Assembly: GCA_905478185.1 (NCBI GenBank)
Contig: CAJQHO010000001.1
Location: forward strand, 17,924-81,923
Reading direction: 5' to 3'
Length of the DNA: 64,000 bases
DNA from: an uncultured Flavobacteriales bacterium
GTDB taxonomy: Bacteria > Bacteroidota > Bacteroidia > Flavobacteriales > BACL11
Shown here: positions 48,120-61,924 of the stretch, in pieces
How positions within the stretch are numbered: the first letter of the stretch is position 1
Layout of the letters: each line of letters starts with the position of its first letter
Notes under the pieces: model-generated
Database searches by the model: none
What the model was told of the DNA's origin: nothing
What the model saw: only the letters and a program-made list of their open reading frames with translations
Position numbers and translations under genes: made by a program

Positions 48120-48350
48120 TAAAAATCGTAATAATGATTAGACAAATCAGTGACCAATCCAAAATTGATAAAATTAGTTTGCATTTCTGCTTCATAATTT
48201 ACTTCATCTCTAATTGTAATTCCAATGTTAATTTAAAGATTAGTTTTTGGATTAATAACATAAGTAATCAAAAATGATGCTACTAATGCAAAAAAAATAT
48301 TATAATCTGGGGGTAGCACTTTTCTGGTTTTGCCTGTAAAACTAAGAATT

Positions 48351-48854
48351 TTATTCAATAACAGACATTAATTCAGCTGTCCATTTAGCAAGAGTGTATT
48401 CATTATCTACTTTTACTGTATTTAAATTCATGCGATTTCCAGCCTCAATATCAGAATCTGAATCCCCAATTAAATAAGAGTTCTGACGATCTATCTCAGG
48501 AAAATCAGCAATTGCCTGATTAATCATTCCCGGGTTTGGCTTTCTGCAATTGCAATTTTCAGTATCTAAATGTGGACAAAAATATATTTTGTCAATTTTT
48601 CCATTTAATTTTCCAATTTCGGAAGTCATAAAACTATGCAATAAATTCAAATCATCTTCTGTCATTATACCCTTACCTATTGCCTGTTGATTTGTGACAA
48701 TTAAAATCCTTTTAAATAGTTTCGAAAGTTTTGAGATAGCAACTAATGCTCCTTGCATAAATTCAAATTCTTTAGAATTACTAACATATCTTGCTTCTAG
48801 TTTTACATTTATAACGCCATCTCTATCCAAAAAAAGGGTGTCTAAACTATGCAT
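48351..48854 (-). CDS. gmhB: D-glycero-D-manno-heptose 1,7-bisphosphate phosphatase GmhB (HAD-IIIA)
   Basis: LFLDRDGVIN (HAD motif I), VTNQQAIGKG, the Zn-site/loop CPHLDTENCNCRKPNPGM and GDSDSD. Confidence 0.8.
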   Translation of the reverse strand: MHSLDTLFLDRDGVINVKLEARYVSNSKEFEFMQGALVAISKLSKLFKRILIVTNQQAIGKGIMTEDDLNLLHSFMTSEIGKLNGKIDKIYFCPHLDTENCNCRKPNPGMINQAIADFPEIDRQNSYLIGDSDSDIEAGNRMNLNTVKVDNEYTLAKWTAELMSVIE

Positions 48855-49452
48855 TAGGAAACATTTCTTCTTCTATAAGCTGACAAATAATATGCCCAAC
48901 TAAAATATGAGCTTCTTGAATTCTAGGTGTGTCATCAGAAGGAACTTGTATCATTATATCGCAAATCTCTTTCATTTTTCCTCCTTTACATCCTGTAAAA
49001 CCAACTGTTACCATTCCAATTTCTTTAGCATTATGCATTGCTTTAACTACATTTGGAGAATTCCCAGAAGTAGAAATTCCAACTAAAACATCTCCTTTTC
49101 TTCCAGATGCTTCAACCATTCTCGCATAAGTTTCGTCATAACCATAATCATTAGCAACAGCAGTCATGTATGACGAGTTTACGTGCAAGGCTTCTGCATA
49201 TAAAGGAGGTCTATCCTTATAAAACCTACCACTAAGTTCAGACGCAATGTGCTGAGCATCACTAGCACTCCCACCATTTCCACAGAAAAGCATCTTTTTA
49301 TCATTCTTAAAAGCCTTAATACTATTAGTTACAATTCTTTCAATATTAATTTGAAGATTAGAATCATTCAAAACTCTAGTGTGATTTTCTACAGAACTTT
49401 TAATTCTACTTTTAATTCTACTTTTAATTCTACTTTTAATTCTACTTTTCAT
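48847..49452 (-). CDS. gmhA: Phosphoheptose (sedoheptulose-7-phosphate) isomerase GmhA with a repetitive N-terminus
   Basis: SIS domain motifs CGNGGSASDAQHIASEL and GISTSGNSPNV. The N-terminus is MKSRIKSRIKSRIKSRIKSS. 8-nt overlap with gmhB. Confidence 0.85.
   Translation of the reverse strand: MKSRIKSRIKSRIKSRIKSSVENHTRVLNDSNLQINIERIVTNSIKAFKNDKKMLFCGNGGSASDAQHIASELSGRFYKDRPPLYAEALHVNSSYMTAVANDYGYDETYARMVEASGRKGDVLVGISTSGNSPNVVKAMHNAKEIGMVTVGFTGCKGGKMKEICDIMIQVPSDDTPRIQEAHILVGHIICQLIEEEMFPNA
49396..49449 (-). repeat. Perfect 12-bp tandem repeat (AAAAGTAGAATT x4 plus a partial AAAAGT) directly after the gmhA ATG
   Basis: Read directly on the plus strand: aattctactttt occurs four times head-to-tail at 49402-49449, preceded by actttt at 49396-49401. 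It is in frame and encodes (KSRI)x4-KS. Confidence 0.95.
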
Positions 49453-49479
49453 ATTTATGATTTTGGTAAAAATACAAAA

Positions 49480-50625
49480 TTAAAGAGTTTCATATGCTAA
49501 CTTTGTAAGTCTGCCTATTTCATCCCATCCATATTTTGTATTTATTAATTCTATTCCTTTCTTTCTAACTATTTCTAAATTCTTTTTATCAGCCAAAATC
49601 TCAATTAATTTATCAGATAAATCATTTGAATTTTCTGTCTCAAATAAAAACCCATTTTCATTATCAGAAATCACCTCCATTAAAGGAGGTAAATTAGATA
49701 CAATAGCTGGCCTTTCATAACTAAGAGTCATCATTAAAACTCCACTTTGATAAATCTTTTTATAAGGCAACACAACTAAATCTGATGCACAATAATAATG
49801 CTCAACAACCTCATGGGGTATAAACTTAGCATGAAGAATAATATGTTTAGAGAGATTATTTCTATCTATTATCTTTTGATATTCATCAAAGTCATTTTCC
49901 CAAGGCTTTCCAGCAATAAGCAATACAATATCAGAATTTGTATCTACAACTTTTTTAAATGCTTCTAAAAGTATTTCAAGGCCTTTTACTTTTTTAATCA
50001 TACCAAAAAAGAGCAATATTGTCTTATCCTTTGGTAAATTTAATTTTTCTTTTGAATTATTTTTATCATTCTGAATAGAAATAAATGGAGTGTAATTTCC
50101 ATGCGGAATAATGTAAATGTTGCTAGATGATATAGAAGTTACTTTAATGATCTCATTTTTACTAAATGCATTATGAGTCAACACTATATCAGTTAAATTA
50201 TAAATAAACTTTGAAATAATTGTTGATTCGTTTTCATCAGCAAATGAAGTAACATCATGAACTGTAAGTACAACTTTACCAAAAAGAAGCTTAACTAAAA
50301 GAAGATTAAACAATATCAAAATATTTGTATAAAAAATATGGAAATGGAAAACTGAGGTACCTTGCAGCCTTGCGTGAAGTACAGACTTTAAAGTTCCAAC
50401 TACCCACCTTAAACCACTTATCCATTTATACTTAGAGGAAAACAAATTATTATAAAAGGAATAGAAATGAACTCCTTTTACATGAGGATTTTCAGTCTCA
50501 TTATTAGCATACAAACTAAGCTGAACTCCAGCATTAGACAATCCAATACACTGTCCAAAAGTATAAAAATGGAAAGAACCTCCATGAGCTCCAAGAGTAT
50601 CAATAATCGCTACTTTTCTTTTCAT
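49480..50625 (-). CDS. Glycosyltransferase, GT4 family (GT-B fold)
   Basis: 381 aa. C-terminal EX7E-type region (SYERPAIVSNLPPLMEVISDNENGFLFE) and general GT4 layout. Confidence 0.8.
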   Translation of the reverse strand: MKRKVAIIDTLGAHGGSFHFYTFGQCIGLSNAGVQLSLYANNETENPHVKGVHFYSFYNNLFSSKYKWISGLRWVVGTLKSVLHARLQGTSVFHFHIFYTNILILFNLLLVKLLFGKVVLTVHDVTSFADENESTIISKFIYNLTDIVLTHNAFSKNEIIKVTSISSSNIYIIPHGNYTPFISIQNDKNNSKEKLNLPKDKTILLFFGMIKKVKGLEILLEAFKKVVDTNSDIVLLIAGKPWENDFDEYQKIIDRNNLSKHIILHAKFIPHEVVEHYYCASDLVVLPYKKIYQSGVLMMTLSYERPAIVSNLPPLMEVISDNENGFLFETENSNDLSDKLIEILADKKNLEIVRKKGIELINTKYGWDEIGRLTKLAYETL

Positions 50626-51536
50626 TATTTCATTAAAATACCTTCAAAATAAGATCTATTAATTAACCACCAAGTAGAGAGATTTTTCCTGATTTGAGAA
50701 TTAATCACAAATTTAATATTGTTTTTAAAAAACAACCAAAAAATAAAGAAAAATGAAAAAACACCTCCTATTTGTTTTAAAAAATACACATGGTTTCTTG
50801 TATTCTGTTTAATAAAGAAATCACCTCTATAGGTTCTTTCTTTTTGCTTGTCAAATGATTTTGTTAAACTTCCAACTTTATGATAAAATTCGACATCAGG
50901 ATAATAAAACATTTTATGTCGACTATTCTTCCAGACTCTGTAAGAGAAATCTGTATCGTCAAAATAGACAAAATACTTTTCATTCATTAGGCCAACATCA
51001 TTAAATACTTCTTTTTTGGCTAATAAACAGCAAGTTGGAGCATACTCTACCTCAACAGTTTCATCATATCTTCCCTTATCCAATTCACCCATTCCTCTAT
51101 GTAAAGGCAAATACCCTTTACTTTTATCAAACCAGCTCCCAGCATACCAAATATGATTAGGATTATCAAAATACATCATTTTAGGACTTACCAAACTACA
51201 ACATTTATCTTCTTGTACTTTTAAAAGTTTTTCAATTAAAGTTGTCTCAAATTCTACATCATTATTAATAATTAGAATTTGATTACATCCATCATCAATA
51301 GCCTTTTTAATTCCTTGATTATTTGCTTTTGCAACACCAAAATTTGTTTCATTTTTTGAAACAACTAATCTAGAATCTTTATCATTTCTTAAGATATCTA
51401 AAGTTGTATCAGTTGATAAATTATCAACTACATAAAGCGTTAAATTTTCATGCGTTTGATTCCACACACTATCCAAAAATGGTTGTAAAACATCAGCAGA
51501 ATTATATGTAATAGTTACTAATCCTACTTTATCCAT
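50625..51536 (-). CDS. Glycosyltransferase, GT2 family (GT-A fold)
   Basis: 303 aa. N-terminal VTITYNS...FLDSVWNQT, VVDNLSTD and ILIINNDVEF motifs are typical of GT2 (rhamnosyltransferase-like) enzymes. Confidence 0.85.
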   Translation of the reverse strand: MDKVGLVTITYNSADVLQPFLDSVWNQTHENLTLYVVDNLSTDTTLDILRNDKDSRLVVSKNETNFGVAKANNQGIKKAIDDGCNQILIINNDVEFETTLIEKLLKVQEDKCCSLVSPKMMYFDNPNHIWYAGSWFDKSKGYLPLHRGMGELDKGRYDETVEVEYAPTCCLLAKKEVFNDVGLMNEKYFVYFDDTDFSYRVWKNSRHKMFYYPDVEFYHKVGSLTKSFDKQKERTYRGDFFIKQNTRNHVYFLKQIGGVFSFFFIFWLFFKNNIKFVINSQIRKNLSTWWLINRSYFEGILMK

Positions 51537-52390
51537 TTTGTATAATCTTTATTCAACAACTCACTCAGCTCATACACATCTTTCTCAAAATGCTTTTTCA
51601 AAAAATGTCTTGTTTCAACTTTCATTATTGGTTTCTTGTCACTTTTAAACAAAAAATTACGAGTACTTTTAATCATTTCTTTCGAAAAAATTGAAGTTAA
51701 CAGATTCCGCAAAGGAACAAAAGAATAAATATATCTGATAATTCTATTTTTAGGCATTGAATATGTATTATGCTTCTTGTTTAAGTTTGGCTGAAAATCA
51801 TCATTAACCCCTAAAAAGAAATAAGTCTTATTTACAACCCCCGCTACATCTTTTTTAAAATCTTCATAATCAATCAACAAAATATTCTCACGATTAAACA
51901 CATTCAAATACCTTTTTAACTGATTAGTATACTCCCCTACTTGAATGTATTGTTGGTAAAATAAATTTGCATATTTATGATTAGATTTTTTCTTTACAAT
52001 ATCCTCAAAACTTTCGGAAACTAAACCTAATCTATAATCCATTAAATAATGTGAAAATGCTCTGTCTATTGGATTTCTAAGCATTATAATAATTTTAGAA
52101 TCAGGATTATATTTCTTAATCTTATTAGGCACATCATCATAAAAGAAATAAGAAACACTCCCTTCTCCTCTTAATTTAGCTTGAGGGTTTACAAATAGGT
52201 TATTGTACTTATCTAAAGTATCAATTCTATTTTTACCATAATACATTCCTTGCTCATGCAAAGCATCATCAGAAAAATAATCAGGCTCTTTTTGGGAGCT
52301 CATCTCAACTTCAAGATGCTCGTTAAGATAATGGTACAAAGATGTTGTTCCTGCTTTTGGAGCTCCAACTATAAAAAAATCTACTTTCAT
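51524..52390 (-). CDS. PAPS-dependent sulfotransferase (ST1; Sulfotransfer_1-like)
   Basis: 288 aa. 5'-PSB loop GAPKAGTTSL at the extreme N-terminus and 3'-PB motif MLRNPIDRAFSHY. No signal peptide. Confidence 0.85.
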   Translation of the reverse strand: MKVDFFIVGAPKAGTTSLYHYLNEHLEVEMSSQKEPDYFSDDALHEQGMYYGKNRIDTLDKYNNLFVNPQAKLRGEGSVSYFFYDDVPNKIKKYNPDSKIIIMLRNPIDRAFSHYLMDYRLGLVSESFEDIVKKKSNHKYANLFYQQYIQVGEYTNQLKRYLNVFNRENILLIDYEDFKKDVAGVVNKTYFFLGVNDDFQPNLNKKHNTYSMPKNRIIRYIYSFVPLRNLLTSIFSKEMIKSTRNFLFKSDKKPIMKVETRHFLKKHFEKDVYELSELLNKDYTKWIK

Positions 52391-53395
52391 TTAAAAAAAC
52401 CTTTTTTTAATAACCTCAACCACATTCCCGAGTCTATGATAATTCAAAACAAAAGCTAAGCCTAATTTGAATGGGAAGGAGATGAAATGCAAAACTACCA
52501 TAATTGGAGGGAAAGTGAAAGTTTCCTTCTCGTATCCAAATTCATCCATCATATTAGAAGATAAATTTTGAGACAAATAAATTTCAGAGCTTGTCAGCCC
52601 GCCCTTCTTCCATTTACTAATTTTGGAGCTATCAATAACTAATTCAGATTTTGAATCATTTTCTGTTGAAGAACCAATAACCGGAACTTTCAACATATTT
52701 TCTTGAAAATCAATTTCTAAAAATTTACAAATCTCAGGCACTTGAATTCTTGAATCAAATAACAAATCTTCAAACTTTACAATTTTCACTCTAGAATTAC
52801 TTCTAAATTTAGAGGTCTGATATAATGAAGAATTCCAAACCTTAGCCGTTAATATTGGATGATAATTTACAAATGAGCGAATAGCTTCTATCATAGGTAT
52901 TGATTTAGCACCAAGAAATCTTCTTTTCCATTTGTTCTTTTGCGAAAGTAAAACATCTCTTTGGTCTCTTACCAAATTTATAACTTTTGCATCAGGAAAG
53001 AAATCTAAAATTTCCTCTAAATAATATAGGTTTTTAGGTGTTTGTTCACAAGAAATTGAACTGCCATTTTCTTTTGATATTGTTGCAAAAAATAATTCAT
53101 AAATTTTTAAAGGAGAAGAAATATCTTCTGCTAAAATTTTCTCTGATTTTCCTTTAAATTCTATAAAATTATTTTGATTGAATATCCCTCTCTCTTGTAT
53201 GCAAAATAATCTAGAGAGTAAATGTACTTGTTCTGCTCTGTTTAATTTTTTGTCGCTATTATTTGTCCAAATAGTCCCAAAAAAATGCAACTCTTTAAAA
53301 GTAAAAACATCAGAATGATTACCTAAAATACGTCCCATCATAGTAGTGCCACTTCTACTACTACCTACAATAAATATTTGTTTTGCTTTACTCAT
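52391..53395 (-). CDS. Sulfotransferase, divergent type (ST2; Sulfotransfer_3-like) with a hydrophobic C-terminal tail
   Basis: 334 aa. P-loop-like GSSRSGTTMM and LVRDQRDVLLSQ motifs. The C-terminus FPPIMVVLHFISFPFKLGLAFVLNY looks like a membrane-associating helix. Confidence 0.7.
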   Translation of the reverse strand: MSKAKQIFIVGSSRSGTTMMGRILGNHSDVFTFKELHFFGTIWTNNSDKKLNRAEQVHLLSRLFCIQERGIFNQNNFIEFKGKSEKILAEDISSPLKIYELFFATISKENGSSISCEQTPKNLYYLEEILDFFPDAKVINLVRDQRDVLLSQKNKWKRRFLGAKSIPMIEAIRSFVNYHPILTAKVWNSSLYQTSKFRSNSRVKIVKFEDLLFDSRIQVPEICKFLEIDFQENMLKVPVIGSSTENDSKSELVIDSSKISKWKKGGLTSSEIYLSQNLSSNMMDEFGYEKETFTFPPIMVVLHFISFPFKLGLAFVLNYHRLGNVVEVIKKRFF

Positions 53396-54726: not shown

Positions 54727-55853
54727 TTTAGCAGCCCTTTATTTTTGAGTTCGTTTAAAGACTGTTTATACTTATCTTCTTTTACCTCTTGAGTTTTCAC
54801 CCAATCTGCAAACCTAGAAATCCCTGTTTGAAAATCAAATTTTGCCGTAAATCCAAGAAGATTTTTTATTTTATTTAAATCTGCATAATTATGTCTAATA
54901 TCACCTAATCTAAAACTACCATCAATTGAAATATTTGCATTGGAATTATACAAGCTCTTTAAAGAATTTGCAACTTGACTTACTGTTGTCGCTTCCCCAG
55001 AACCAACATTAAATATCTGATGGTTCGCTTCTTCTTTTTCTAAAGCAAGTATTGTAGCCTCTACTACATCATCAATAAATACAAAATCCCTACTCTCTTC
55101 ACCATCCTCATAAATATCAATATCATTCCCATTTAACATTCTTGTAGAGAAAATAGAAAGAATTCCAGTATATGGATTGCTTAATGATTGCCCTGGACCA
55201 TATACATTTTGATATCTGAGTGCAACTGCAGGAATCCCTAATGATTTCCCCATTAATAGTATCATTTGCTCTTGTTGCTGTTTTGTAATACCATAAATTG
55301 AAGATGGATGAATCTTTGAATTTTCATCTGTTGGCATTAAATCTAATTCACCTCCACAAACATCACAAAATAGATCAAATTTTCCTTTCATCATATTAGA
55401 TGCTATTCTGTCATTAGGATAAACTACACCATGATTCTCACATTTATATTTACCCTCCCCATAAATTGACCTTGATGATGCAATTATCAACTTCTTTACA
55501 GAGTTTTTATTATTAGCCAAGAAATCAAGTAAATGAGATGTTCCTAAAATGTTTACATCATTGTATCTAGAAATCTCATACATAGATTGTCCTGTTCCAG
55601 TCTCTGCAGCTAAATGAATAACAGCATCTTGTCCTTTTAAAGACTTTTTCCAATCTTCTTCATTACAAACGTCTCCTAAAATAAATGTAGAGATTTCTTT
55701 AATAGAATTATATAATTCTGATTTTTGATCTTTTCCATGGATTTGCTTTGATAGATTATCTAAAATAGTGATATTATAACCTTTAGATACTAGTTTTTTT
55801 GTAAGATTAGATCCAATAAATCCTGCCCCTCCTGAAATTAAAATATTCTTCAT
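54723..55853 (-). CDS. NAD-dependent epimerase/dehydratase (extended SDR) with a Cys/His insertion
   Basis: GGAGFIGSNL Rossmann motif and catalytic YGITK (YxxxK). About 35 extra residues between the catalytic Ser region and the Tyr contain C138-x2-H141...C163-x2-C166. Confidence 0.85.
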   Translation of the reverse strand: MKNILISGGAGFIGSNLTKKLVSKGYNITILDNLSKQIHGKDQKSELYNSIKEISTFILGDVCNEEDWKKSLKGQDAVIHLAAETGTGQSMYEISRYNDVNILGTSHLLDFLANNKNSVKKLIIASSRSIYGEGKYKCENHGVVYPNDRIASNMMKGKFDLFCDVCGGELDLMPTDENSKIHPSSIYGITKQQQEQMILLMGKSLGIPAVALRYQNVYGPGQSLSNPYTGILSIFSTRMLNGNDIDIYEDGEESRDFVFIDDVVEATILALEKEEANHQIFNVGSGEATTVSQVANSLKSLYNSNANISIDGSFRLGDIRHNYADLNKIKNLLGFTAKFDFQTGISRFADWVKTQEVKEDKYKQSLNELKNKGLLK

Positions 55854-57103
55854 GCTATGTTTTGTTTGTGTGATGTTATTCTATAAAATATCTGATGAAA
55901 ACCTGAAATTATAAATATTAAAAAAAATGGACGCAATAATAAAGGTTCAGACATTACTGAGATAAATAATATTATCATAAATAACCACTTTTTATGTTCT
56001 ATTATTTTTTGTTTAAAAAACATATATAATAGAAGTAAAGTAGTAGGAAATCCAGTTCCAGCAAGTAAAAACATAACAGAGTTACTGCTGCTTTTATCAG
56101 ACACTTCTATTGTTGAAGGTATTTCTATAAATGAATTTGATGAAATATAAAATTCCTTTCTAATGTTTTGAAATTGAAAAACATCTAGACCAATGCCAGT
56201 CAATGGATTCTCCATAGCAATAAAAACTGGTTGTGTTAAGTCAAAGACTCTTTTTTGAAAGGAAGTCTTTCTTTCACCTTGTATTTTGTTATCAATATTT
56301 ACACTAAAAATAAAATAAAATGGCACTAGCAATATAGCAATTACAGCTAAGATTAGTTTATTATTTTTTCTTTCTTCTGTAAGATAAACCAAAGCTTGAA
56401 TTAATAAAATAGCTAAACCTGTAGTTGAATAGGACGTTAAAATAACAAAAGAAATAAACAATAAGAAAAGTTTGCTTTTTTTAACTACAAACGCCTCCAA
56501 AAAGAATAAAATATTTAGAAACACTTGTAAAACACCAGGTTCCCAAAACAAACCCTGGTTTCTGCAAAACTCAAAACCTTGAAGATTTACAATGCTTCTT
56601 TCTGTAGTATAAAAGAATAAATTAAGAAAAGTCTCGCATTCATGAAAAGTGGAAGTAATTGTAGATAAATTATCACTTACAAAGAAGTAAAAAAGAAAGT
56701 TTAATGCCGAATGAAATGCTATCAACTTAAGAACAAAGTAAAGTGTTTTTAAAAATTGATTAATATTTCTATTATTCTTAAAGTGAAAAAAAGTTAAAAC
56801 GGATAACGCAACAGATAATAAATAAAATAAATATTTCTCTATAGTCTGTTCTGTAATTGCGAAAATAAAATTAATTATACCTACACAAATAATGGAAATT
56901 AGAACTAGAATTGACGAATAAACAAATGGTTTTTTAAATTTATTACCAAAAAATAAAATTGAAAAAATTAATACTCCAAAGAACAGAACCGACATAACAT
57001 TACGATTAAACACAAACAACAATCCACCTGTACTCATTATTAACATAAATACAATTAAATTATCAATCATTCTTTGTTTAACAGTATATATCATAAATCC
57101 CAA
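55850..57103 (-). CDS. Wzy-type polymerase / O-antigen ligase family membrane protein
   Basis: 417 aa with about 10-12 hydrophobic segments and no soluble-enzyme motifs. Supported by its position in a Wzx-containing glycan locus. Confidence 0.6.
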   Translation of the reverse strand: MGFMIYTVKQRMIDNLIVFMLIMSTGGLLFVFNRNVMSVLFFGVLIFSILFFGNKFKKPFVYSSILVLISIICVGIINFIFAITEQTIEKYLFYLLSVALSVLTFFHFKNNRNINQFLKTLYFVLKLIAFHSALNFLFYFFVSDNLSTITSTFHECETFLNLFFYTTERSIVNLQGFEFCRNQGLFWEPGVLQVFLNILFFLEAFVVKKSKLFLLFISFVILTSYSTTGLAILLIQALVYLTEERKNNKLILAVIAILLVPFYFIFSVNIDNKIQGERKTSFQKRVFDLTQPVFIAMENPLTGIGLDVFQFQNIRKEFYISSNSFIEIPSTIEVSDKSSSNSVMFLLAGTGFPTTLLLLYMFFKQKIIEHKKWLFMIILFISVMSEPLLLRPFFLIFIISGFHQIFYRITSHKQNIA

Positions 57104-57978
57104 TACATTTTTCTATCTATAACCTCTTCAATAGCAATAATATCCTCTTTAAAGTAATTATTATACATCATTTTTCTTTGAATAATAGATAACTTTTCAG
57201 GTGTAAAAGTACTAATATTTGCTCTCTGTATTCTATTTTTAATAATCTGTCTTATTTTTAAAGAAGGAATCATTTTCTTTAAAAGAATCCTCCACCACCC
57301 TCTCTTTTTCATTATCCTTTTTAAAGTTTTTGATTTTTCTTGACTTGCAGGATTACTTTTAATATCTATTTTCAGATCAAAATTCTCAATTTCAAGAAAA
57401 TTTAAAATTTTAATCATTGTTTCTTCTCTATGTTTTATAAATTCATCCTCAAAATGGATGATTAAAAAATTATCTAATGAAAAATATTCTAAATATCTTT
57501 CTAACATATCAAAGTATAATCCTTGACTTACATATGATTGCCTTAAATAAGATAGATAATCACCATTTTCTTCATATTTCTTCAGCCTTGAACTTTCATT
57601 CATTAGAGCTTCTTTGAACTCTAAATCTTCATGATCATCTCTTTTGGAATGCAAATAATGGGAATAAGCTCTATCTACAGGATTTCTAAGAATTACAACA
57701 AATTTTACTTTATTGCCTAAGCTTTCAAAAATTCTTTTTGGAGCTTCTTTATCAAAGAAATAAGAAGGTGTAAAGTCAGCTACTATTTTTTGATTTGCAT
57801 TCTTAAAATAATTCTTTCCATACCAGTTAATTCCATTTTTATAATTTTCTGGGATATCAAAAAAGTGAGGTTCCTTAAAAGAAGGAATATATACATCAGG
57901 ATGTTGACGCAAGATATCGTAAAGAGTAGTTGTACCACTCTTTGCAGCTCCTAAACACATAAAATTTGGCAAACTCAT
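57091..57978 (-). CDS. PAPS-dependent sulfotransferase (ST3)
   Basis: 295 aa. GAAKSGTTTL 5'-PSB loop and ILRNPVDRAYSHY 3'-PB motif. No signal peptide. Confidence 0.85.
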   Translation of the reverse strand: MSLPNFMCLGAAKSGTTTLYDILRQHPDVYIPSFKEPHFFDIPENYKNGINWYGKNYFKNANQKIVADFTPSYFFDKEAPKRIFESLGNKVKFVVILRNPVDRAYSHYLHSKRDDHEDLEFKEALMNESSRLKKYEENGDYLSYLRQSYVSQGLYFDMLERYLEYFSLDNFLIIHFEDEFIKHREETMIKILNFLEIENFDLKIDIKSNPASQEKSKTLKRIMKKRGWWRILLKKMIPSLKIRQIIKNRIQRANISTFTPEKLSIIQRKMMYNNYFKEDIIAIEEVIDRKMYWDL

Positions 57979-58880
57979 TCTACCCAGAAGTTTAGATTTC
58001 TATTTAATAAGTCTGAGAGTTTCTTTACATCAATTTTGTAAAACTCCTTCAACATTATTCTATCTTTTTCAGTAATTTGTTTTACTTCTACAGAGTTTTT
58101 TTTCTGAATTCTTTTTCTTATAGATTTTCTTAATCCTTTAAATGGAATTAACATTTTTATTGCAGATTTTAGAGGATTCCTATTCATCATAAGTCTTTTC
58201 ATCTTTTCATTCTCCCATTGCCATCCTCCTACCATATGTCTTTTGTCAGATTCTATTTCAATATTTTCAACCTCTAAGAAATCAAATGCTTTATTCATCT
58301 CTGATTTGAAATCAGATTTATAATCATCATAAATAATTATATGCAGATTATCTTTAAATTCATTTAAATACGATTTTACCTGATTATAGTACAATCCTAA
58401 TTCTTGATATCTTGAAGCGGGCGTCATATCATTCTGATTAAAGTATCGTTCTTCTGACAATTTCCAAGCTTCTGTAAAATCTTGAATTTTCTCTTTTACA
58501 TTATATCTTTTTACATGATGGAAACCAGAATACGCTCTTTCTACAGGATTTCTTAACATGATAATTATCTTAGTGTTTTCTAAGTAATTGTTTTTAATCT
58601 TAGGAATTACAATTTCAGGATACATCAAATACATGACGGAAGATTCTCCTCTATATTTTTTATCTCCCCCTTCAAAAAATAAATTTTCATATTCTGATTT
58701 TTCAGTAACACCAACAGGAATTCTATCAACTCCTATTTCCTTATTTATTAGATAATGGGGTTCTTTCGGATTGCACATAAAAATATCAGGATGCTGATTT
58801 AGATAATTGTGAAGTGAAGTTGTTCCACTTTTTGCAGCTCCTACTATAAACAGATTTGGTTTCCCCATTATTTTGTCCAA
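57975..58880 (-). CDS. PAPS-dependent sulfotransferase (ST4)
   Basis: 301 aa. GAAKSGTTSL and MLRNPVERAYSGF motifs. Paralog of ST3, ST5 and ST1. Confidence 0.85.
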   Translation of the reverse strand: MDKIMGKPNLFIVGAAKSGTTSLHNYLNQHPDIFMCNPKEPHYLINKEIGVDRIPVGVTEKSEYENLFFEGGDKKYRGESSVMYLMYPEIVIPKIKNNYLENTKIIIMLRNPVERAYSGFHHVKRYNVKEKIQDFTEAWKLSEERYFNQNDMTPASRYQELGLYYNQVKSYLNEFKDNLHIIIYDDYKSDFKSEMNKAFDFLEVENIEIESDKRHMVGGWQWENEKMKRLMMNRNPLKSAIKMLIPFKGLRKSIRKRIQKKNSVEVKQITEKDRIMLKEFYKIDVKKLSDLLNRNLNFWVE

Positions 58881-59776
58881 TTCGTTAAATCTCTATTTAA
58901 TAAAGTTGATAATTGCTTTACATCCTCTCTAAAAAAATTATTTAACATGATTCTTGTATGACCCTTCATTGGGGTTACTTTATTTGTAGATGGTGTTACA
59001 AGATTATTTCTTATTCCTCTTCTTAACCCTTTTGGGATGATTCTTCTAAATATAGATTTAATTGGGTTTTCTTTCATAAAAAGGTATTTCACCTTATCAT
59101 TTTTCCATCTTTTCCCTCCAACATTATGTCTTGTTACATAATCGATATCTGCATTGTCTGAAATTCCCAAAAACTGATATGTTTTTTTCATTTCATTTTC
59201 AGTATCATCCCTAAAATCATCATAGATGATAACGTGAACATTTGAAAAATTTTCTTGAAACGACTTCACCATATCATGATACAATCCCATGTCTTTATAC
59301 ATAACCATAGGAGTTAAATTTCCATCTCTTTCAAGTCTACCATCTTCCATTTCTAATGATTTTTCAAATGAATTTTGTTCTTTAAATCCTCTAGAAACAT
59401 GTTGAAATGCAGAGTACGCTCTGTCAGCAGGATTTCTTAACATGATAATTATCTTTACATCATTGCCTAATTTCTCCTTTATATTTTTGATCGCATCTTT
59501 ATAATAATAAAGATATAACACAGTAGACTCACCAACTGCCTTTTCATCTGTTACATCACCAAAAAGACTCTTATATTCCTCCCAAGTCCATACTCCATTA
59601 TGCAACCTATGTTTTACCAAATCTTTAATTAAAAATCTAGGCTCTTTAACTTTCATTCCTTCAGAATTATATGACGGCATAAACACTTCTGGGTGCTGAT
59701 TTAAATAATTATGCAAAGAAGATGTTCCGCTTTTTGCAGCTCCTACAATCAGAAAATTTGGTAATTTATTTTTCAT
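58868..59776 (-). CDS. PAPS-dependent sulfotransferase (ST5)
   Basis: 302 aa. GAAKSGTSSL and MLRNPADRAYSAF motifs. Paralog of ST3, ST4 and ST1. Confidence 0.85.
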   Translation of the reverse strand: MKNKLPNFLIVGAAKSGTSSLHNYLNQHPEVFMPSYNSEGMKVKEPRFLIKDLVKHRLHNGVWTWEEYKSLFGDVTDEKAVGESTVLYLYYYKDAIKNIKEKLGNDVKIIIMLRNPADRAYSAFQHVSRGFKEQNSFEKSLEMEDGRLERDGNLTPMVMYKDMGLYHDMVKSFQENFSNVHVIIYDDFRDDTENEMKKTYQFLGISDNADIDYVTRHNVGGKRWKNDKVKYLFMKENPIKSIFRRIIPKGLRRGIRNNLVTPSTNKVTPMKGHTRIMLNNFFREDVKQLSTLLNRDLTNWTK

Positions 59777-61128
59777 CTTTTAATAAATGGGATATAAAAT
59801 GTATAAAATCCAAACTTCTTTTTAACGACAAAAACCATACTTACGTTCCAAATAATTAAGCTTGACATAGACGCAAAAGCAGCTCCATTAATTCCAACAA
59901 TATTAAATACAGCTAAAGGGCTTGTATCTGGTATAAGAATTAAATTTAGAGTGACATTTAGTATTGCTCCAACAAACAATATCTTAGCATAAATATTCTG
60001 ATTTCCTGTCATTTGTAAAATATTTCCAACAGAGCCTGAAAAGGAACTTATTAATCTTCCGCAAGATAAGAATATAAATGCAGTTACCCCAATTTTAAAT
60101 TCCTCCCCGAACAATCCTAATAAGAATTCAGGAAAAATAAAGAAAATTACAACAAGCGGTACAGAGGTCCAAAAAATTATTTTAGTGGATTGATGTACTA
60201 CTTTTTTCAGGCCTTCCATATCATTCTTACCAAACATTTCGGCAAATTTTGGGGAAGCAATACTGTTTATTGACATCAGTGAAACAGCCGCAAACATTGA
60301 AAGTTTAAAGGCAGTGTGATAAATCCCTACATCTTCTGAAGTTGTCATATTACCCAACATAAGTTTATCAGTCCAAGCTATAATAAACTGCACTGATTGC
60401 GCAAACATTAATGGAATAGAGATTTTCAATATTTCGGAATAACTTCTGACTTCTTTGTCAGCACTTTGCCTACCTTCTGATTTGTTTTTAATCCAATATC
60501 TATAAGATAAAAAGGATAAAAAGGCAACTATAGAAACACTAACTAAATAAGCATATACTGGAACCTCCGCATCTGTGGTAAATTGGTAAATTATTACAAT
60601 GGCAATTACAGAAAAAAGCGATTGCGACATTCTGTAAAAAAAGGAGAATTCCGCTATTCTTTTCAATCCTCTTAAACTCTGATAATGCAACATGAAAAAT
60701 GCCATTGGCATTACAAAAAATGCATTCAACTGAATATATCTTACATTTGTATTTATTAAATCTGCAATTGGCTCTGATAAAAAATACATCATTAAAGAAG
60801 CTACAATTGATGTAAAAGACAAAATAGGAACAACTTGTTTTCTGAAATAGAATATACTTGTCCATTTTTCTTGTAAAGCAAAAGAAGCTATAAAACGAAT
60901 GGAGGTTGTATCTAATCCTAATTTTGCAAGAAGAGTAAATAATCTTAAAACAGTAATAGCTAAAACATAATCTCCTAGCCCTCTAGCTCCAAATAAATTA
61001 GCGATTACTAGTGTAAGAAGATAACCTACTGCTAACCCTCCAAACCTTAAGAAAATTGACACTCCTCCTCCTTTTACTAATTCTGAGAAGTTTTTATCTT
61101 TTAATGCTTTTTTTATCTTAGTTTTCAT
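59773..61128 (-). CDS. Wzx-type flippase (MOP superfamily polysaccharide biosynthesis protein)
   Basis: 451 aa with about 12-14 TM segments. The N-terminal region (LVKGGGVSIFLRFGGLAVGYLLTLVIANLFG) is typical of Polysacc_synt/Wzx proteins. Confidence 0.8.
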   Translation of the reverse strand: MKTKIKKALKDKNFSELVKGGGVSIFLRFGGLAVGYLLTLVIANLFGARGLGDYVLAITVLRLFTLLAKLGLDTTSIRFIASFALQEKWTSIFYFRKQVVPILSFTSIVASLMMYFLSEPIADLINTNVRYIQLNAFFVMPMAFFMLHYQSLRGLKRIAEFSFFYRMSQSLFSVIAIVIIYQFTTDAEVPVYAYLVSVSIVAFLSFLSYRYWIKNKSEGRQSADKEVRSYSEILKISIPLMFAQSVQFIIAWTDKLMLGNMTTSEDVGIYHTAFKLSMFAAVSLMSINSIASPKFAEMFGKNDMEGLKKVVHQSTKIIFWTSVPLVVIFFIFPEFLLGLFGEEFKIGVTAFIFLSCGRLISSFSGSVGNILQMTGNQNIYAKILFVGAILNVTLNLILIPDTSPLAVFNIVGINGAAFASMSSLIIWNVSMVFVVKKKFGFYTFYIPFIKR

Positions 61129-61924
61129 TGGTTAACTTTACCAAAAACCAAGGGTTTAAAAGGTTTTCTTTATTGTATTCTACTGATTTTTCTGTATTAT
61201 ATTGCAAAACTTGAAACCCTGCCATTCTACAAATTGCATCTCCCGCACCCGTATCCCACTCCATTGTAGGTGCATATCTTGGGTATGCATCTGCTTTTCC
61301 TTCAGCAACCATACATAATTTAAGAGAAGATCCAACTGCCATAACTTCAACATTACCGTGTTCTTTTTTCTTTTCATCAAAAAACTCTTCTGTTTCTTCT
61401 GACATATGAGAGCGAGAACCAACAATAACATAATTCTCTCGCTTATAATCAATCGGAAGCTTATTAGACCTTTCAATTAAATCATCTAAATCAGAAATAA
61501 CAGCATCTCTACTAATTTTATAAGACCCAAGACCTTCCATTGCAAAATAAAGTTCTTCTTTAACAGGGACATAAATCACACCCATAATTGGATTTCCATT
61601 ATGGATCAAAGCAATATTCACAGTGAACTCCCCATTTCTTTTTACAAATTCTTTTGTGCCATCTAAAGGATCAACCAACCAAGAGTACTCCCATTTTTTT
61701 CTTTCTTCAAAAGAAATCTGAGCTCCTTCTTCACTTAATATAGGGATTTCAGTTTTAAGAAGAAAACTTTCTATTACATCATTACAATTTTTATCTGCAA
61801 GAGTTAAAGGAGATTTATCATCCTTATGTTCAACTGCAAAATCAGACGCATATACATCCATGATTGCATGCCCCCCCTCAATGGAAGCATTAATTGCTTT
61901 TACTAATAATTCTTTAAAATTCAT
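61118..61924 (-). CDS. cysQ: 3'(2'),5'-bisphosphate nucleotidase CysQ (PAP phosphatase)
   Basis: 268 aa. Inositol-monophosphatase-fold motifs ILSEEG, WLVDPLDGTKEF and WDTGAGDAI. 11-nt overlap with the flippase gene. Confidence 0.85.
   Translation of the reverse strand: MNFKELLVKAINASIEGGHAIMDVYASDFAVEHKDDKSPLTLADKNCNDVIESFLLKTEIPILSEEGAQISFEERKKWEYSWLVDPLDGTKEFVKRNGEFTVNIALIHNGNPIMGVIYVPVKEELYFAMEGLGSYKISRDAVISDLDDLIERSNKLPIDYKRENYVIVGSRSHMSEETEEFFDEKKKEHGNVEVMAVGSSLKLCMVAEGKADAYPRYAPTMEWDTGAGDAICRMAGFQVLQYNTEKSVEYNKENLLNPWFLVKLTNEN

What the first reader, a model, noticed from the sequence alone, without database searches (positions are those of the whole stretch)
48351..61924. Wzx/Wzy glycan locus carrying five sulfotransferases plus cysQ: candidate pathway for a multi-sulfated surface polysaccharide
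Sixteen minus-strand genes run from the window end to 48351 with overlaps or gaps of at most 27 nt. In order they are ALDH, an ALDH-like protein, cysQ, a Wzx flippase, three tandem sulfotransferases, a Wzy-like polymerase, an SDR epimerase/dehydratase, a secreted GH-like barrel, two more sulfotransferases, GT2, GT4, gmhA and gmhB. Every sulfotransferase shows both PAPS-binding motifs, a 5'-PSB loop (PKAGTTS, AKSGTT(T/S), AKSGTSS, SRSGTTM) and a 3'-PB motif (RNPxDRAxS or its variant). All five start with the PAPS loop within about 20 residues and have no signal peptide, so sulfation is predicted to be cytoplasmic. That implies it acts on the lipid-linked repeat unit before Wzx flipping, so Wzx and Wzy would handle a highly anionic unit. 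Only two glycosyltransferases accompany five sulfotransferases, which implies a short repeat carrying several sulfate esters. Sulfated bacterial polysaccharide pathways are known only from a few examples, such as rhizobial LPS/Nod factor sulfation and the cyanobacterial xss/synechan cluster, so this density of sulfotransferases in a Bacteroidota Wzx/Wzy locus is unusual. No initiating phosphoglycosyltransferase, chain-length regulator, outer-membrane exporter or PAPS synthesis gene (cysDN/cysC) is present in the window.
Basis: partly seen in the sequence, partly recalled or inferred. Interest (0 to 1): 0.8.

Follow-up and report, generated by a model that had tools for sequence, protein, structure and literature searches.

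The report
Conserved sulfated-glycan operon, initiator gene deleted
An uncultured marine flavobacterium carries an operon, conserved in at least 52 related species, that looks built to make a surface sugar chain decorated with many sulfate groups, but this lineage has lost by a clean deletion the gene that starts the chain.

Summary
Window 48351-61924 (-) holds cysQ, wzx, three sulfotransferases (ST), a Wzy_C-family protein, an SDR 4-epimerase, a secreted glycoside-hydrolase-like protein, two more STs, GT2, GT4, and gmhA- and gmhB-like genes. All five STs pass Pfam thresholds and keep the PAPS-binding residues.

New context changes the picture.
1. cysC, cysD and cysN lie about 2 kb beyond the window end, so PAPS supply is adjacent.
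2. The same locus, in the same order and at the same chromosomal site, occurs in 52 species-level genomes of uncultured marine Flavobacteriales (probably the BACL11 family), each with 3-5 STs where complete.
3. Most relatives end the locus with a WecA-type initiating transferase and a RemB/Wzi-like outer-membrane protein. In this lineage a 2,480-bp in-frame deletion between 12-nt direct repeats removed both. The scar is at 48119-48319.
4. The wzx-ST block is a swapped cassette: 27-58% identical to near relatives whose flanking genes are 82-99% identical.
5. The "GH-like barrel" is a high-confidence clan GH-A fold (GH51/GH79-like) with no Pfam family.

Two things remain unresolved. The Wzy_C protein may be a polymerase or a ligase. 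The pathway may or may not still run in this lineage. I rate it a new variant of a known kind.

The parts
61118..61924 (-). cysQ, 3'(2'),5'-bisphosphate nucleotidase. It removes PAP, the sulfotransferase by-product. It is the first gene of the conserved operon and overlaps wzx by 11 nt.
   Evidence: TIGR01331 262.9 bits against a 228.8 cutoff. Present in every related locus that reaches this far.
59773..61128 (-). Wzx-type (MOP family) flippase. Part of the variable cassette.
   Evidence: Polysacc_synt 3.7e-15, MatE, Polysacc_synt_3. Eight or more hydrophobic segments. Identity is 55-58% to near relatives L018/L021 but 83% to distant L060.
58868..59776 (-). ST1, a cytoplasmic PAPS sulfotransferase of the heparan-sulfate-ST-like Sulfotransfer_1 family. 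Part of the variable cassette.
   Evidence: Pfam 2.1e-16. PDB 3rnl 1.5e-42, then NDST1 and 3-OST. Motifs AKSGTSS, KEP, RNPADRAYS.
57975..58880 (-). ST2, a cytoplasmic PAPS sulfotransferase. Part of the variable cassette.
   Evidence: Sulfotransfer_1 1.5e-17. 46% identical to ST1.
57091..57978 (-). ST3, a cytoplasmic PAPS sulfotransferase. Part of the variable cassette, with no counterpart in sister lineages L018/L021.
   Evidence: Sulfotransfer_1 7.9e-22. Best identity in L018/L021 is only 27-30%. Nucleotide homology to L020/L021 ends at 57104-57120.
55850..57103 (-). Wzy_C-family polytopic membrane protein: either the repeat-unit polymerase or a WaaL-type ligase.
   Evidence: Wzy_C 42.8 bits against 31.7. 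About 11 hydrophobic segments. AF2 pLDDT 75; the only fold match is WaaL 7tpg, TM 0.46. NCBI name is 'O-antigen ligase family protein'. Identity to relatives is 41-92% and mosaic.
54723..55853 (-). SDR nucleotide-sugar 4-epimerase (GalE/WbpP/WbgU-like) with a Cys-rich insertion of about 40 aa.
   Evidence: Epimerase 9.6e-52 in two stretches. Nearest PDB entries are 4zrm UDP-glucose 4-epimerase, WbpP and WbgU.
53395..54726 (-). Secreted clan GH-A glycoside-hydrolase-like enzyme (TIM barrel plus beta-sandwich) belonging to no Pfam family. Inferred role is periplasmic trimming or release of the glycan.
   Evidence: N-terminal signal-like peptide MRLILFFFLFGLNSIAQ. No Pfam or NCBIfam family. E157 and E289 are invariant in 50 homologues. 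AF2 pLDDT 93.1. Foldseek matches GH51 and GH79 at probability 1.0, TM 0.55-0.62.
52391..53395 (-). ST4, a Sulfotransfer_3-type sulfotransferase with Arg in the 5'-PSB loop and a C-terminal hydrophobic tail (probable membrane anchor).
   Evidence: Sulfotransfer_3 7.1e-25. Remote match to CurM/OLS ST. Hydrophobic segment at aa 298-316. Forms its own orthogroup of 37 sequences.
51524..52390 (-). ST5, a cytoplasmic PAPS sulfotransferase in the conserved part of the locus.
   Evidence: Sulfotransfer_1 2.6e-23. 97% identical in L018.
50625..51536 (-). GT2 glycosyltransferase.
   Evidence: Glycos_transf_2 2.2e-22.
49480..50625 (-). GT4 glycosyltransferase.
   Evidence: Glycos_transf_1 2.7e-26.
48847..49452 (-). 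gmhA-like SIS sugar-phosphate isomerase. Its 5' end carries a 12-nt tandem repeat that varies between strains.
   Evidence: TIGR00441 205.8 bits against a 209.45 cutoff. Repeat at 49396-49449, 4.5 copies. Four units here, two in most sister strains.
48351..48854 (-). gmhB-like HAD-IIIA sugar-bisphosphate phosphatase.
   Evidence: PRK08942 1.3e-42, below its cutoff; HAD-SF-IIIA above its cutoff.
48119..48319 (-). Deletion scar. The first 21 codons of a WecA-type initiating transferase (48257-48319) are fused in frame to the last ~50 codons of a RemB/Wzi-like outer-membrane protein (48119-48268). The 12-nt microhomology lies at 48257-48268. A premature TAA at 48233-48235 occurs in this strain.
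   Evidence: tblastn of relatives' OM protein: 64% identity over 50 aa, E 5.7e-15. Two blastn alignments to L018 (98% and 96%) overlap on ATTACTTATGTT, with 2,480 bp missing. The same junction is present in all 8 same-species contigs shown.
61934..64000 (-). ALDH-like N-terminal-half protein (61934-62794) and a full ALDH (62794 onward, running off the window). Co-directional with the operon but probably a deoC-linked aldehyde module, not part of the glycan pathway.
   Evidence: Aldedh hits. deoC lies upstream (TIGR00126 above cutoff). The trio is present in only some related loci.

Best explanation
The region is the core of a conserved operon that builds a heavily O-sulfated oligosaccharide unit on undecaprenyl phosphate at the cytoplasmic face of the inner membrane and passes it through a Wzx flippase.

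Proposed flow:
1. CysDN and CysC, divergently transcribed just beyond the window, make PAPS.
2. A WecA-type transferase, present in most relatives, starts the unit with a HexNAc-1-phosphate.
3. GT4 and GT2 add two sugars. Precursors come from the GalE-like 4-epimerase and the GmhA/GmhB-like pair.
4. Up to five soluble or tail-anchored sulfotransferases add sulfate esters. CysQ destroys the inhibitory by-product PAP.
5. Wzx flips the anionic unit.
6. The Wzy_C-family protein polymerises it, or ligates it.
7. The secreted clan GH-A enzyme trims or releases it.
8. In relatives, a RemB/Wzi-like outer-membrane protein handles it at the surface.

The wzx plus 2-3 ST block (in some relatives with part or all of wzy) behaves as an exchangeable cassette. 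Related lineages should therefore differ in sulfation pattern, much as serotypes differ.

In the lineage of this window, a 2,480-bp microhomology deletion removed the in-locus initiating transferase and the outer-membrane protein. The pathway then either depends on an initiating transferase elsewhere in the genome or has recently been switched off.

Shown: gene identities, motifs, adjacency, conservation, the mosaic pattern and the deletion. Inferred: substrates, order of steps, polymer versus single unit, and current activity.
For: Gene assignments:
- All five STs are above Pfam thresholds and keep the PAPS motifs. Those residues are nearly invariant in 196 clade STs.
- ST1 matches a solved sulfotransferase at 1.5e-42, then heparan-sulfate NDST/3-OST.
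- cysQ is above its equivalog cutoff and overlaps wzx.
- cysC, cysD and cysN are all above their cutoffs. They lie next to the operon in the same species and in relatives.
- PMC11641403 calls the combination of PAPS genes and STs in a polysaccharide cluster a hallmark of sulfated polysaccharide synthesis.
- No ST has a signal peptide, and ST4 has a C-terminal anchor.

Conservation:
- 52 species-level genomes share the gene order cysQ-wzx-ST(2-3)-wzy-SDR-GH-ST(1-3)-GT2-GT4-gmhA-gmhB, usually followed by PGT and the OM protein, between cysCDN and tsaB.
- dN/dS against the sister lineage L018 is 0.085-0.40 for the conserved genes. Housekeeping controls give 0.20-0.26.

Cassette:
- Against L018 and L021, flanking genes are 82-99% identical while Wzx is 55-58% and the STs 27-52%.
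- The window's Wzx is 83% identical to that of L060, whose GH is only 42% identical.
- Nucleotide homology breaks at 56548-57120.

GH-like protein: pLDDT 93, GH51/GH79 fold, and an invariant Glu pair.

Deletion: mapped to the base and present in all same-species contigs shown.
Against: - No initiating transferase, PCP/Wzc, OPX/Wza or WaaL is present in the 64-kb window. No Wzc or Wza homologue was recognised within 10 kb of the locus in relatives, although my labelling panel did not include them.
- The in-locus PGT is deleted here, so the pathway may be dead in this organism. The population is too clonal (99.1-99.98% identity) for a decisive selection test: 15 synonymous against 22 non-synonymous SNPs.
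- The Wzy_C protein cannot be shown to be a polymerase.
- GmhA and GmhB score below their equivalog cutoffs, and no heptose kinase or nucleotidyltransferase is in the locus.
- There is no chemical evidence of sulfate esters for any member of the clade, all of which are uncultured.
Confidence: 0.7

Rival explanations
1. In this particular lineage the operon is a recently inactivated remnant. Loss of the initiating transferase and the RemB/Wzi-like protein abolished the glycan, for example as an escape from phage or grazers. The remaining genes simply have not had time to decay.
For: - A 2,480-bp deletion removes both genes and is fixed in all same-species contigs shown.
- The fused relic ORF has already acquired a stop codon in this strain.
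- The deletion is young: the flanks are 96-98% identical to the intact sister L018, with dS 0.03-0.17.
- Population SNPs run 15 synonymous to 22 non-synonymous, which is only weakly purifying.
Against: - All 14 operon ORFs are intact, with preserved overlaps, in every short-read contig examined.
- There is no clear excess of lineage-specific amino-acid changes: 30 here against 21 in L018 over nine genes.
- A whole subclade (L041-L050) keeps the locus without an in-locus PGT, so initiation in trans is workable.
- The lineage with the deletion is widespread: its proteins are indexed in 45-62 blocks of the assembly collection.
Confidence: 0.3
2. The Wzy_C protein is a WaaL-type ligase or a PglL-type O-oligosaccharyltransferase. 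The product would then be a single sulfated trisaccharide-scale unit capping lipid A-core or decorating proteins, not a polymer.
For: - Pfam Wzy_C is the O-antigen-ligase family, and NCBI names homologues 'O-antigen ligase family protein'.
- The only structural match is WaaL 7tpg.
- No chain-length regulator or OPX exporter lies in or near the locus.
- From my own knowledge, not tested here: Bacteroidota have a general protein O-glycosylation system that uses a Wzx.
Against: - The gene sits beside wzx and shows the deep, mosaic divergence typical of linkage-specific polymerases: 41-60% identity where neighbouring genes are 60-80%.
- A dedicated secreted glycoside hydrolase and, in relatives, a Wzi/RemB-like protein fit better with a polymer.
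- The fold match to WaaL is weak (TM 0.46). No Wzy polymerase structure appeared among the matches, so the comparison cannot discriminate.
Confidence: 0.25
3. The sulfotransferases act on something other than the lipid-linked repeat unit, such as a lipid, a small metabolite or the finished polymer outside the cytoplasm. Their position in the glycan operon would then be incidental.
For: No substrate is known for any of these enzymes. ST4 is remotely similar to polyketide-type CurM ST.
Against: - The STs are interleaved with wzx, wzy and the GTs, with overlapping stop and start codons.
- This arrangement is kept in 52 species.
- Four of the five are closest to carbohydrate (heparan-sulfate-type) STs.
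- None has a signal peptide. PAPS is a cytoplasmic metabolite, which is established biochemistry rather than something tested here.
Confidence: 0.05

Closest known systems
Synechan xss cluster of Synechocystis sp. PCC 6803 (PMC8205485)
   Same: Both are Wzx/Wzy-type clusters with sulfotransferases embedded among glycosyltransferases. In both, the unit is thought to be built and modified on the cytoplasmic side and then flipped. In both, the OPX exporter is not in the cluster.
   Different: - xss has 2 STs for 8 GTs (sulfate:sugar about 2:8). This locus has 5 STs for 2 GTs plus a PGT.
- xss carries a PCP (XssK) and the XssQRS regulators, none of which is seen here.
- xss lacks cysQ, adjacent cysDNC and a secreted GH.
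- xss is plasmid-borne in one strain. This locus is chromosomal, at a fixed site, and conserved in at least 52 species.
- Sequence homology to xss proteins was not tested.
Sulfated capsule/O-antigen loci of marine Gammaproteobacteria (Vibrio sp. KMM 8419, PMC11641403; Cobetia marina KMM 1449, PMC11766843)
   Same: Extra cysNDC copies and sulfotransferases sit inside a polysaccharide locus, which those authors propose as the hallmark of sulfated polysaccharide synthesis.
   Different: - The Vibrio capsule is ABC-transporter (Kps) dependent and has one ST per region within a 95-kb locus.
- Those loci are strain-specific and rich in mobile elements.
- Their products are chemically proven, with one sulfate per repeat.
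- Here nothing is chemically known, ST density is much higher, and the host is Bacteroidota.
Animal heparan-sulfate sulfotransferases (NDST sulfotransferase domain, 3-OST) and the bacterial structural-genomics enzyme 3rnl
   Same: Same Sulfotransfer_1 fold family, with the 5'-PSB K-[SA]-G-T-[TS] loop, the 3'-PB R...S motif and a K-E-P-H-F-F-like segment. That this segment corresponds to the 3-OST catalytic Glu/His region is my recollection, not tested here.
   Different: Identity outside the PAPS motifs is low (E 1e-5 to 1e-7). The animal enzymes are Golgi-lumenal and act on a finished polymer. These are cytoplasmic and presumably act on a lipid-linked unit.
PslG (GH39) and similar periplasmic hydrolases encoded in exopolysaccharide operons (recalled from the literature, not tested here)
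   Same: A secreted two-domain clan GH-A hydrolase (TIM barrel plus beta-sandwich) encoded inside the biosynthetic operon of the polymer it presumably cuts.
   Different: The protein here matches no Pfam family. Its nearest folds are GH51 and GH79 at 9-15% identity. Its substrate would be sulfated.
E. coli K30 Wzi / Flavobacterium RemB outer-membrane proteins
   Same: The relatives' 522-550-aa protein is labelled RemB by NCBI. Several homologues carry a precomputed PF14052 (Caps_assemb_Wzi) hit.
   Different: hmmscan found no Pfam family at E<=0.01 for three members, and there is no PDB sequence match. In the window only the last ~50 codons survive.

Membership tests
PAPS-dependent sulfotransferases (Pfam Sulfotransfer_1 / Sulfotransfer_3) | Profile-HMM match above the curated gathering score | tested here: met
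   All five score 60.5-89 bits against cutoffs of 22 and 27.
PAPS-dependent sulfotransferases (Pfam Sulfotransfer_1 / Sulfotransfer_3) | 5'-phosphosulfate-binding loop with a basic residue followed by [SA]-G-[ST]-[TS] | tested here: met
   K in ST1, ST2, ST3 and ST5; R in ST4. K or R in 193/196 clade STs.
PAPS-dependent sulfotransferases (Pfam Sulfotransfer_1 / Sulfotransfer_3) | 3'-phosphate-binding Arg and Ser | tested here: met
   R114 and S122 are invariant in the five. They occur in 195/196 and 189/196 across the clade.
PAPS-dependent sulfotransferases (Pfam Sulfotransfer_1 / Sulfotransfer_3) | Measured sulfotransfer from PAPS to an acceptor | not testable with these tools
   Needs enzyme assays.
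Wzx/Wzy-dependent glycan assembly pathway | MOP-family Wzx flippase | tested here: met
   Polysacc_synt, Polysacc_synt_3 and MatE are above their cutoffs. The protein is polytopic.
Wzx/Wzy-dependent glycan assembly pathway | Wzy repeat-unit polymerase, as distinct from a WaaL ligase | tested here: inconclusive
   Only the Wzy_C domain matches. No NCBIfam model hits. There is no PDB sequence hit. The fold matches only WaaL 7tpg, at TM 0.46.
Wzx/Wzy-dependent glycan assembly pathway | Initiating polyprenyl-phosphate sugar-phosphate transferase | tested here: not met
   None is in the window. Only a 21-codon remnant remains at 48257-48319. Relatives have one: PF00953 at 1.4e-42, WecA-like at 154 bits.
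Wzx/Wzy-dependent glycan assembly pathway | PCP (Wzc/Wzz) and OPX (Wza) export components | tested here: not met
   Absent from all window ORFs of 120 aa or more. Not seen in the Pfam tables of relatives' loci.
CysQ 3'(2'),5'-bisphosphate nucleotidase | Equivalog HMM above its trusted cutoff | tested here: met
   TIGR01331 262.9 bits against 228.8.
Clan GH-A glycoside hydrolases (GH51/GH79/GH39-like) | (beta/alpha)8 barrel plus C-terminal beta-sandwich fold | tested here: met
   AF2 pLDDT 93.1. Foldseek probability 1.0 to GH51 and GH79 structures, TM 0.55-0.62.
Clan GH-A glycoside hydrolases (GH51/GH79/GH39-like) | Two conserved catalytic glutamates (acid/base and nucleophile) | tested here: met
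   E157 (GxELGxE) and E289 (TEWN) are invariant in 50 homologues down to 24% identity. Their placement on strands 4 and 7 of the barrel was not checked residue by residue.
Clan GH-A glycoside hydrolases (GH51/GH79/GH39-like) | Membership of an existing CAZy/Pfam GH family | tested here: not met
   No Pfam family at gathering score. The only hit is Glyco_hydro_cc at 17.5 bits, under its 21-bit cutoff. Ten distant relatives match no GH family either. dbCAN is not available.
GmhA/GmhB nucleotide-heptose pathway | GmhA and GmhB equivalog scores | tested here: inconclusive
   GmhA scores 205.8 against 209.45. GmhB scores 145 against 178 and 116.5 against 149.6.
GmhA/GmhB nucleotide-heptose pathway | Heptose kinase and nucleotidyltransferase (HldE, or HddA plus HddC) | tested here: not met
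   None is in the locus here or in relatives. A ManC-like nucleotidyltransferase lies 40 kb away at 7491-8582.

The most novel reading that the evidence does not exclude
A whole family of abundant, uncultured, small-genome marine Flavobacteriales encodes a surface glycan with heparin-like sulfate density at a fixed chromosomal site shared across the family. That would mean up to about five sulfates on a three-sugar unit. Lineages would diversify its sulfation pattern by exchanging a wzx-sulfotransferase cassette, a 'sulfation serotype' system. If so, planktonic bacteria, not only algae, would be a source of hard-to-degrade sulfated polysaccharide in the sea. The natural deletion in this lineage would be a ready-made knockout for ecological comparison.
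Probability: 0.35. Interest if true: 0.8.

Novelty: new variant of a known kind. Interest (0 to 1): 0.6.

Why it matters
**What is known.** Sulfated polysaccharides in the ocean are usually credited to algae. Bacterial pathways are documented in only a handful of cases: synechan, a few Vibrio and Cobetia capsules, and rhizobial LPS or Nod factors.

**What this adds.** The locus would put a dedicated, PAPS-supplied, multi-sulfotransferase glycan pathway into a widespread uncultured clade of marine Bacteroidota. Its ST:GT ratio is far above the known examples.

**What it makes testable:**
- Whether lipid-linked units can be multiply sulfated before Wzx flipping.
- Whether Wzx specificity tracks sulfation.
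- Whether a new clan GH-A family cuts sulfated bacterial glycans.

**Possible practical use.** The clade offers 3-5 sulfotransferases per genome across at least 52 species as candidate carbohydrate-sulfating enzymes.

**Caveat.** Nothing is chemically shown, and the organism sampled here lacks the initiating gene.

Tried and rejected
**Looked for missing pathway parts in the window.** I ran Pfam on all ORFs of 120 aa or more. Only housekeeping genes turned up, with no PGT, Wzc, Wza or WaaL.

**Tested whether the ALDH pair belongs to the pathway.** I rejected this as unlikely:
- They sit next to a true deoC.
- The trio is present in only some relatives.

**Tried to test ongoing selection after the deletion.** Neither test is decisive:
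- Population SNPs: 15 synonymous against 22 non-synonymous.
- Lineage-specific substitutions: 30 against 21.

**Tried to separate polymerase from ligase for the Wzy_C protein.** All three approaches were uninformative:
- PDB sequence search found no hits.
- Homologue names are generic.
- AF2 plus Foldseek matched only WaaL, weakly.

**Tried to model the deleted outer-membrane protein.** Sequence search of the PDB found nothing, and Pfam hmmscan found nothing at E<=0.01.

**Searched the literature.** Five searches for a described Bacteroidota or Flavobacteriales sulfated-glycan locus found none. The library is open-access only, so absence there is not proof.

**Scanned for RNA features.** Rfam and tRNA scans found nothing near the locus.

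**Considered a horizontally acquired island.** The locus has low GC, 0.26-0.29 against 0.32-0.35 in the flanks. I rejected the island reading for the locus as a whole, because it sits at the same site in 52 species. It is retained for the inner wzx-ST cassette.

Full report
**1.

ORF listing shows 16 contiguous minus-strand genes from 63954 down to 48351, with overlaps or gaps of at most 27 nt. In transcription order the genes are:
- ALDH, which runs off the window
- an ALDH-like N-terminal half
- cysQ (TIGR01331 262.9 bits against a 228.8 cutoff)
- a MOP-family Wzx
- three sulfotransferases (ST1-3)
- a Wzy_C-domain membrane protein
- an SDR epimerase
- a 443-aa protein with no family
- two more sulfotransferases (ST4, ST5)
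- GT2 and GT4
- a gmhA-like SIS isomerase
- a gmhB-like HAD-IIIA phosphatase

All five STs exceed the Pfam gathering scores (E 2e-16 to 7e-25). The quoted 5'-PSB and 3'-PB motifs are in the translations. ST1's best solved relative is a bacterial sulfotransferase (3rnl, 1.5e-42), followed by heparan-sulfate NDST and 3-OST enzymes. ST4 is a Sulfotransfer_3-type enzyme with Arg in the PAPS loop and a distant match to CurM ST. No ST has an N-terminal hydrophobic segment. ST4 has a C-terminal one at aa 298-316.

**2. Host and surroundings**

The rest of the window is housekeeping: gcvP, a DEAD helicase, tsaB, mreBCD/PBP2/rodA, mfd, purH, feoB and others. It also holds two T9SS cargo proteins, which fits Bacteroidota. 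Exact-sequence look-ups name the source only as uncultured marine "Flavobacteriales bacterium".

One homologue of a locus protein comes from "Cryomorphaceae bacterium BACL11". The placeholder family BACL11 has 28-38.5% GC, genomes of about 1.7 Mb, and occurs in seawater (PMC7214798). That matches the window's roughly 32% GC, so BACL11 or a neighbouring family is my inference. The window holds no PGT, Wzc/Wzz, Wza or WaaL.

**3. What lies just outside the window**

Contigs of the same species are 99.1-99.98% identical to the window. They show that the ALDH is 484 aa long and is preceded by a true deoC (TIGR00126 197 bits against a 117 cutoff). Divergently transcribed from deoC are cysC, cysD and cysN, all above their NCBIfam cutoffs. 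PAPS synthesis therefore sits next to the operon, about 2 kb past the window end. No cysH or sir follows cysN in these contigs; what follows is an MFS transporter, DUF4286, a TPR protein and serS.

**4. The locus is conserved across a clade**

I used the unknown 443-aa protein as a probe. The search returned 354 homologues. Related loci found with them have the same gene order at the same chromosomal site, between cysCDN and tsaB/DEAD helicase. A scan of GTDB species representatives returned 65 loci. I labelled their ORFs by blastp against a reference panel.

Fifty-two of the loci, all from uncultured marine Flavobacteriales MAGs or SAGs, show this order:

[cysN cysD cysC]< [deoC (ALDH ALDH-like)] cysQ wzx ST(2-3) wzy SDR GH ST(1-3) GT2 GT4 gmhA gmhB [GMD] [PGT] [OM protein] tsaB

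Loci that are complete carry 3-5 STs each. Across the 191 ST ORFs from those loci plus the five window STs (196 sequences), the PAPS-binding and K-E-P residues are nearly invariant. The STs fall into two deep groups: 159 Sulfotransfer_1-type and 37 ST4-type. The deoC/ALDH trio is present in only some loci, so I do not count it as part of the pathway.

**5. A deletion removed the initiating enzyme in this lineage**

In most relatives the locus ends with two further genes:
- A WecA-type polyprenyl-phosphate HexNAc-1-P transferase (PF00953 at 1.4e-42; TIGR02380 at 154 bits, below its cutoff).
- A 522-550-aa protein that NCBI labels "gliding motility protein RemB". Some homologues carry a precomputed PF14052 (Wzi) hit.

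In the window only 231 bp separate gmhB from tsaB. tblastn finds the last ~50 codons of the outer-membrane protein there (64% identity, E 5.7e-15).

Nucleotide alignment to the sister lineage L018 maps the event exactly:
- Window 48420-48257 matches L018 through the first 21 codons of the PGT at 98%.
- Window 48268-48051 matches the end of the OM gene and tsaB at 96%.
- The two alignments overlap on a 12-nt direct repeat, ATTACTTATGTT against ATTAGTTATGTT.

So a 2,480-bp in-frame deletion fused the two gene ends into a 66-codon ORF. That ORF is called in most same-species contigs. In this strain it carries a premature TAA at 48233-48235. All eight same-species contigs shown have the deletion.

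A separate subclade (L041-L050) keeps the OM protein but has no PGT in the locus. Initiation from elsewhere in the genome is therefore plausible. Tests for relaxed selection after the deletion lack power:
- dN/dS against L018 is 0.085-0.40 for locus genes and 0.20-0.26 for controls.
- Lineage-specific amino-acid changes number 30 here against 21 in L018.
- Population SNPs run 15 synonymous to 22 non-synonymous, with no frameshifts in short-read contigs.

**6. A swapped cassette**

Amino-acid identities to the sister lineage L018 split sharply:

| Gene | Identity to L018 |
|---|---|
| cysQ | 95% |
| SDR | 96% |
| GH | 92% |
| ST4 | 99% |
| ST5 | 97% |
| GT2 | 98% |
| GT4 | 98% |
| gmhA | 96% |
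| gmhB | 98% |
| tsaB | 98% |
| Wzx | 55% |
| ST1 | 50% |
| ST2 | 48% |
| Wzy | 48% |

L018 has only two STs in the block, and ST3 has no counterpart there. The window's Wzx and ST1-3 are instead closest to much more distant genomes: Wzx is 83% identical to that of L060, whose GH is only 42% identical, and 78% to that of L008/L071.

At the nucleotide level, homology to L020 and L021 runs at 93-95% from 48266 to 57104-57120, the Wzy/ST3 boundary, and then collapses. Against L018 it collapses inside wzy, at 56548. The cassette coincides with the lowest GC in the window, 0.26-0.29.

This is the pattern of serotype-determining regions. Here the exchanged unit is wzx plus two or three sulfotransferases, sometimes with wzy. 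That wzx travels with the STs fits the idea that the flippase sees an already sulfated unit. Physical linkage alone could produce the same pattern, so this is support and not proof.

**7. The unknown 443-aa protein**

It has a signal-peptide-like N-terminus and no Pfam or NCBIfam family. It has 583 relatives in the 50%-identity library, and none of the ten relatives I scanned matches a GH family.

Two glutamates, E157 in GxELGxE and E289 in TEWN, are invariant in 50 homologues down to 24% identity. The AlphaFold model is confident (pLDDT 93.1, pTM 0.91). It matches GH51 arabinofuranosidases and the GH79 beta-glucuronidase AcGlcA79A at probability 1.0, TM 0.55-0.62 and 9-15% identity.

It is therefore a secreted clan GH-A enzyme of an unnamed family. 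A role like that of PslG-type hydrolases encoded in exopolysaccharide operons is my inference from memory of that literature. A homologue sits beside Wzx, two STs, an SDR and a PGT in a marine Ekhidna MAG (L079), and beside an ST and a GT4 in a gammaproteobacterial MAG (L080).

**8. What remains uncertain**

- **Polymerase or ligase.** The "Wzy" protein matches only Wzy_C, the O-antigen-ligase family. It has no PDB sequence match. Its moderate-confidence model (pLDDT 75) resembles only WaaL 7tpg, at TM 0.46. Its mosaic hypervariability and its position next to wzx favour a polymerase. The lack of any chain-length regulator or exporter leaves a ligase reading open.
- **Sugar precursors.** The SDR is closest to UDP-hexose or UDP-HexNAc 4-epimerases. 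The GmhA/GmhB-like pair scores just under its equivalog cutoffs and lacks a partner kinase or nucleotidyltransferase in the locus. A heptose component is therefore only a possibility.
- **Chemistry.** There is none. Every member of the clade is uncultured.

**9. Comparison with known systems**

- **Synechan.** The xss cluster has 2 STs for 8 GTs and a sulfate:sugar ratio of about 2:8. It includes a PCP and regulators but no cysQ, cysDNC or GH (PMC8205485).
- **Vibrio sp. KMM 8419.** This capsule locus combines cysNDC with single STs in an ABC-transporter system. Its authors call that combination the hallmark of sulfated polysaccharide synthesis (PMC11641403).
- **Pontiella.** Strain F21 encodes three putative GAG sulfotransferases, one of them in a GT-rich cluster (PMC7356697).

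Five full-text searches found no report of a comparable locus in Bacteroidota. The present locus is the same kind of thing, a PAPS-supplied, ST-containing, Wzx-type glycan cluster. It differs in five ways:
- ST density
- the embedded cysQ
- the novel GH
- its fixed position across a whole clade
- the exchangeable wzx-ST cassette

**10. Verdict**

Most likely explanation (0.7): an operon for a heavily O-sulfated, lipid-linked glycan unit, conserved in a family of uncultured marine Flavobacteriales. In this lineage it has been stripped of its in-locus initiating transferase and outer-membrane partner by a recent deletion.

Two questions need genomes, expression data or chemistry that I could not obtain: whether the pathway still runs here, and whether the product is a polymer. 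I rate the finding a new variant of a known kind, with interest 0.6.

Noticed in passing
window 49396-49449 (5' end of gmhA): A perfect 12-nt tandem repeat encodes (SRIK)n directly after the start codon. There are 4 units in this strain and in L011, but 2 units in eight other contigs (seven same-species, plus the sister-lineage representative L020). It is in frame, so it changes the N-terminus rather than switching the gene off.
   Followed up: partly
window 55335-55445 (SDR aa 137-173): The GalE-like epimerase carries a ~40-aa insertion with a C-x2-H ... C-x2-C pattern that looks like a zinc ribbon. It splits the Pfam match in two. A crude pattern search found such a motif in only 20 of 52 clade orthologues.
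   Followed up: partly
window 61934-62794: A 286-aa protein matches only the N-terminal half of aldehyde dehydrogenases (profile positions 12-232 of 461), so it lacks the catalytic half. It is nevertheless conserved (84% identity in L009) and always sits directly after a full-length ALDH and deoC. Its function is unknown.
   Followed up: no
window 52448-52504 (ST4 aa 298-316): ST4 ends in a strongly hydrophobic segment (mean Kyte-Doolittle score 2.0). This suggests a tail-anchored sulfotransferase held at the membrane, next to the lipid-linked substrate.
   Followed up: partly
window 54723-55853, 53395-54726 and 61118-61924: Against L018, synonymous divergence is 0.15-0.17 in the three genes bordering the swapped cassette (SDR, GH, cysQ). 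It is 0.03-0.085 in genes further away. This looks like the footprint of recombination tracts that extend beyond the cassette.
   Followed up: partly
L079 (Ekhidna sp. MAG) and L080 (gammaproteobacterial MAG): Distant homologues (24-29% identity) of the 443-aa GH-like protein also lie beside sulfotransferases, a Wzx or a GT4 outside the Flavobacteriales clade. Chitinophagaceae homologues (L072-L078) showed no such neighbours with my labelling panel.
   Followed up: partly
window 38546-42492: Two tandem paralogous secreted proteins (658 and 639 aa) carry T9SS C-terminal sorting domains and a DUF3244-like region. They sit next to a tRNA-Phe gene at 38416-38489.
   Followed up: no
window 6391-6816: A 141-aa ORF matches only the C-terminal half of the TauE/SafE sulfite-exporter family (profile positions 125-237 of 237). 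Its upstream part is overlapped by a metallo-beta-lactamase-fold ORF on the other strand (6775-7494). It may be a truncated gene.
   Followed up: no
window 7491-8582 and 1503-2540: A ManC-type sugar-1-phosphate nucleotidyltransferase and a KdsD/KpsF-like SIS+CBS isomerase lie about 40-47 kb from the locus. They are possible suppliers of GDP-sugars or Kdo for envelope glycans. Any link to this locus is untested.
   Followed up: no
window 16239-18038: A 599-aa ORF starting with TTG has no Pfam match at E<=1e-5.
   Followed up: no
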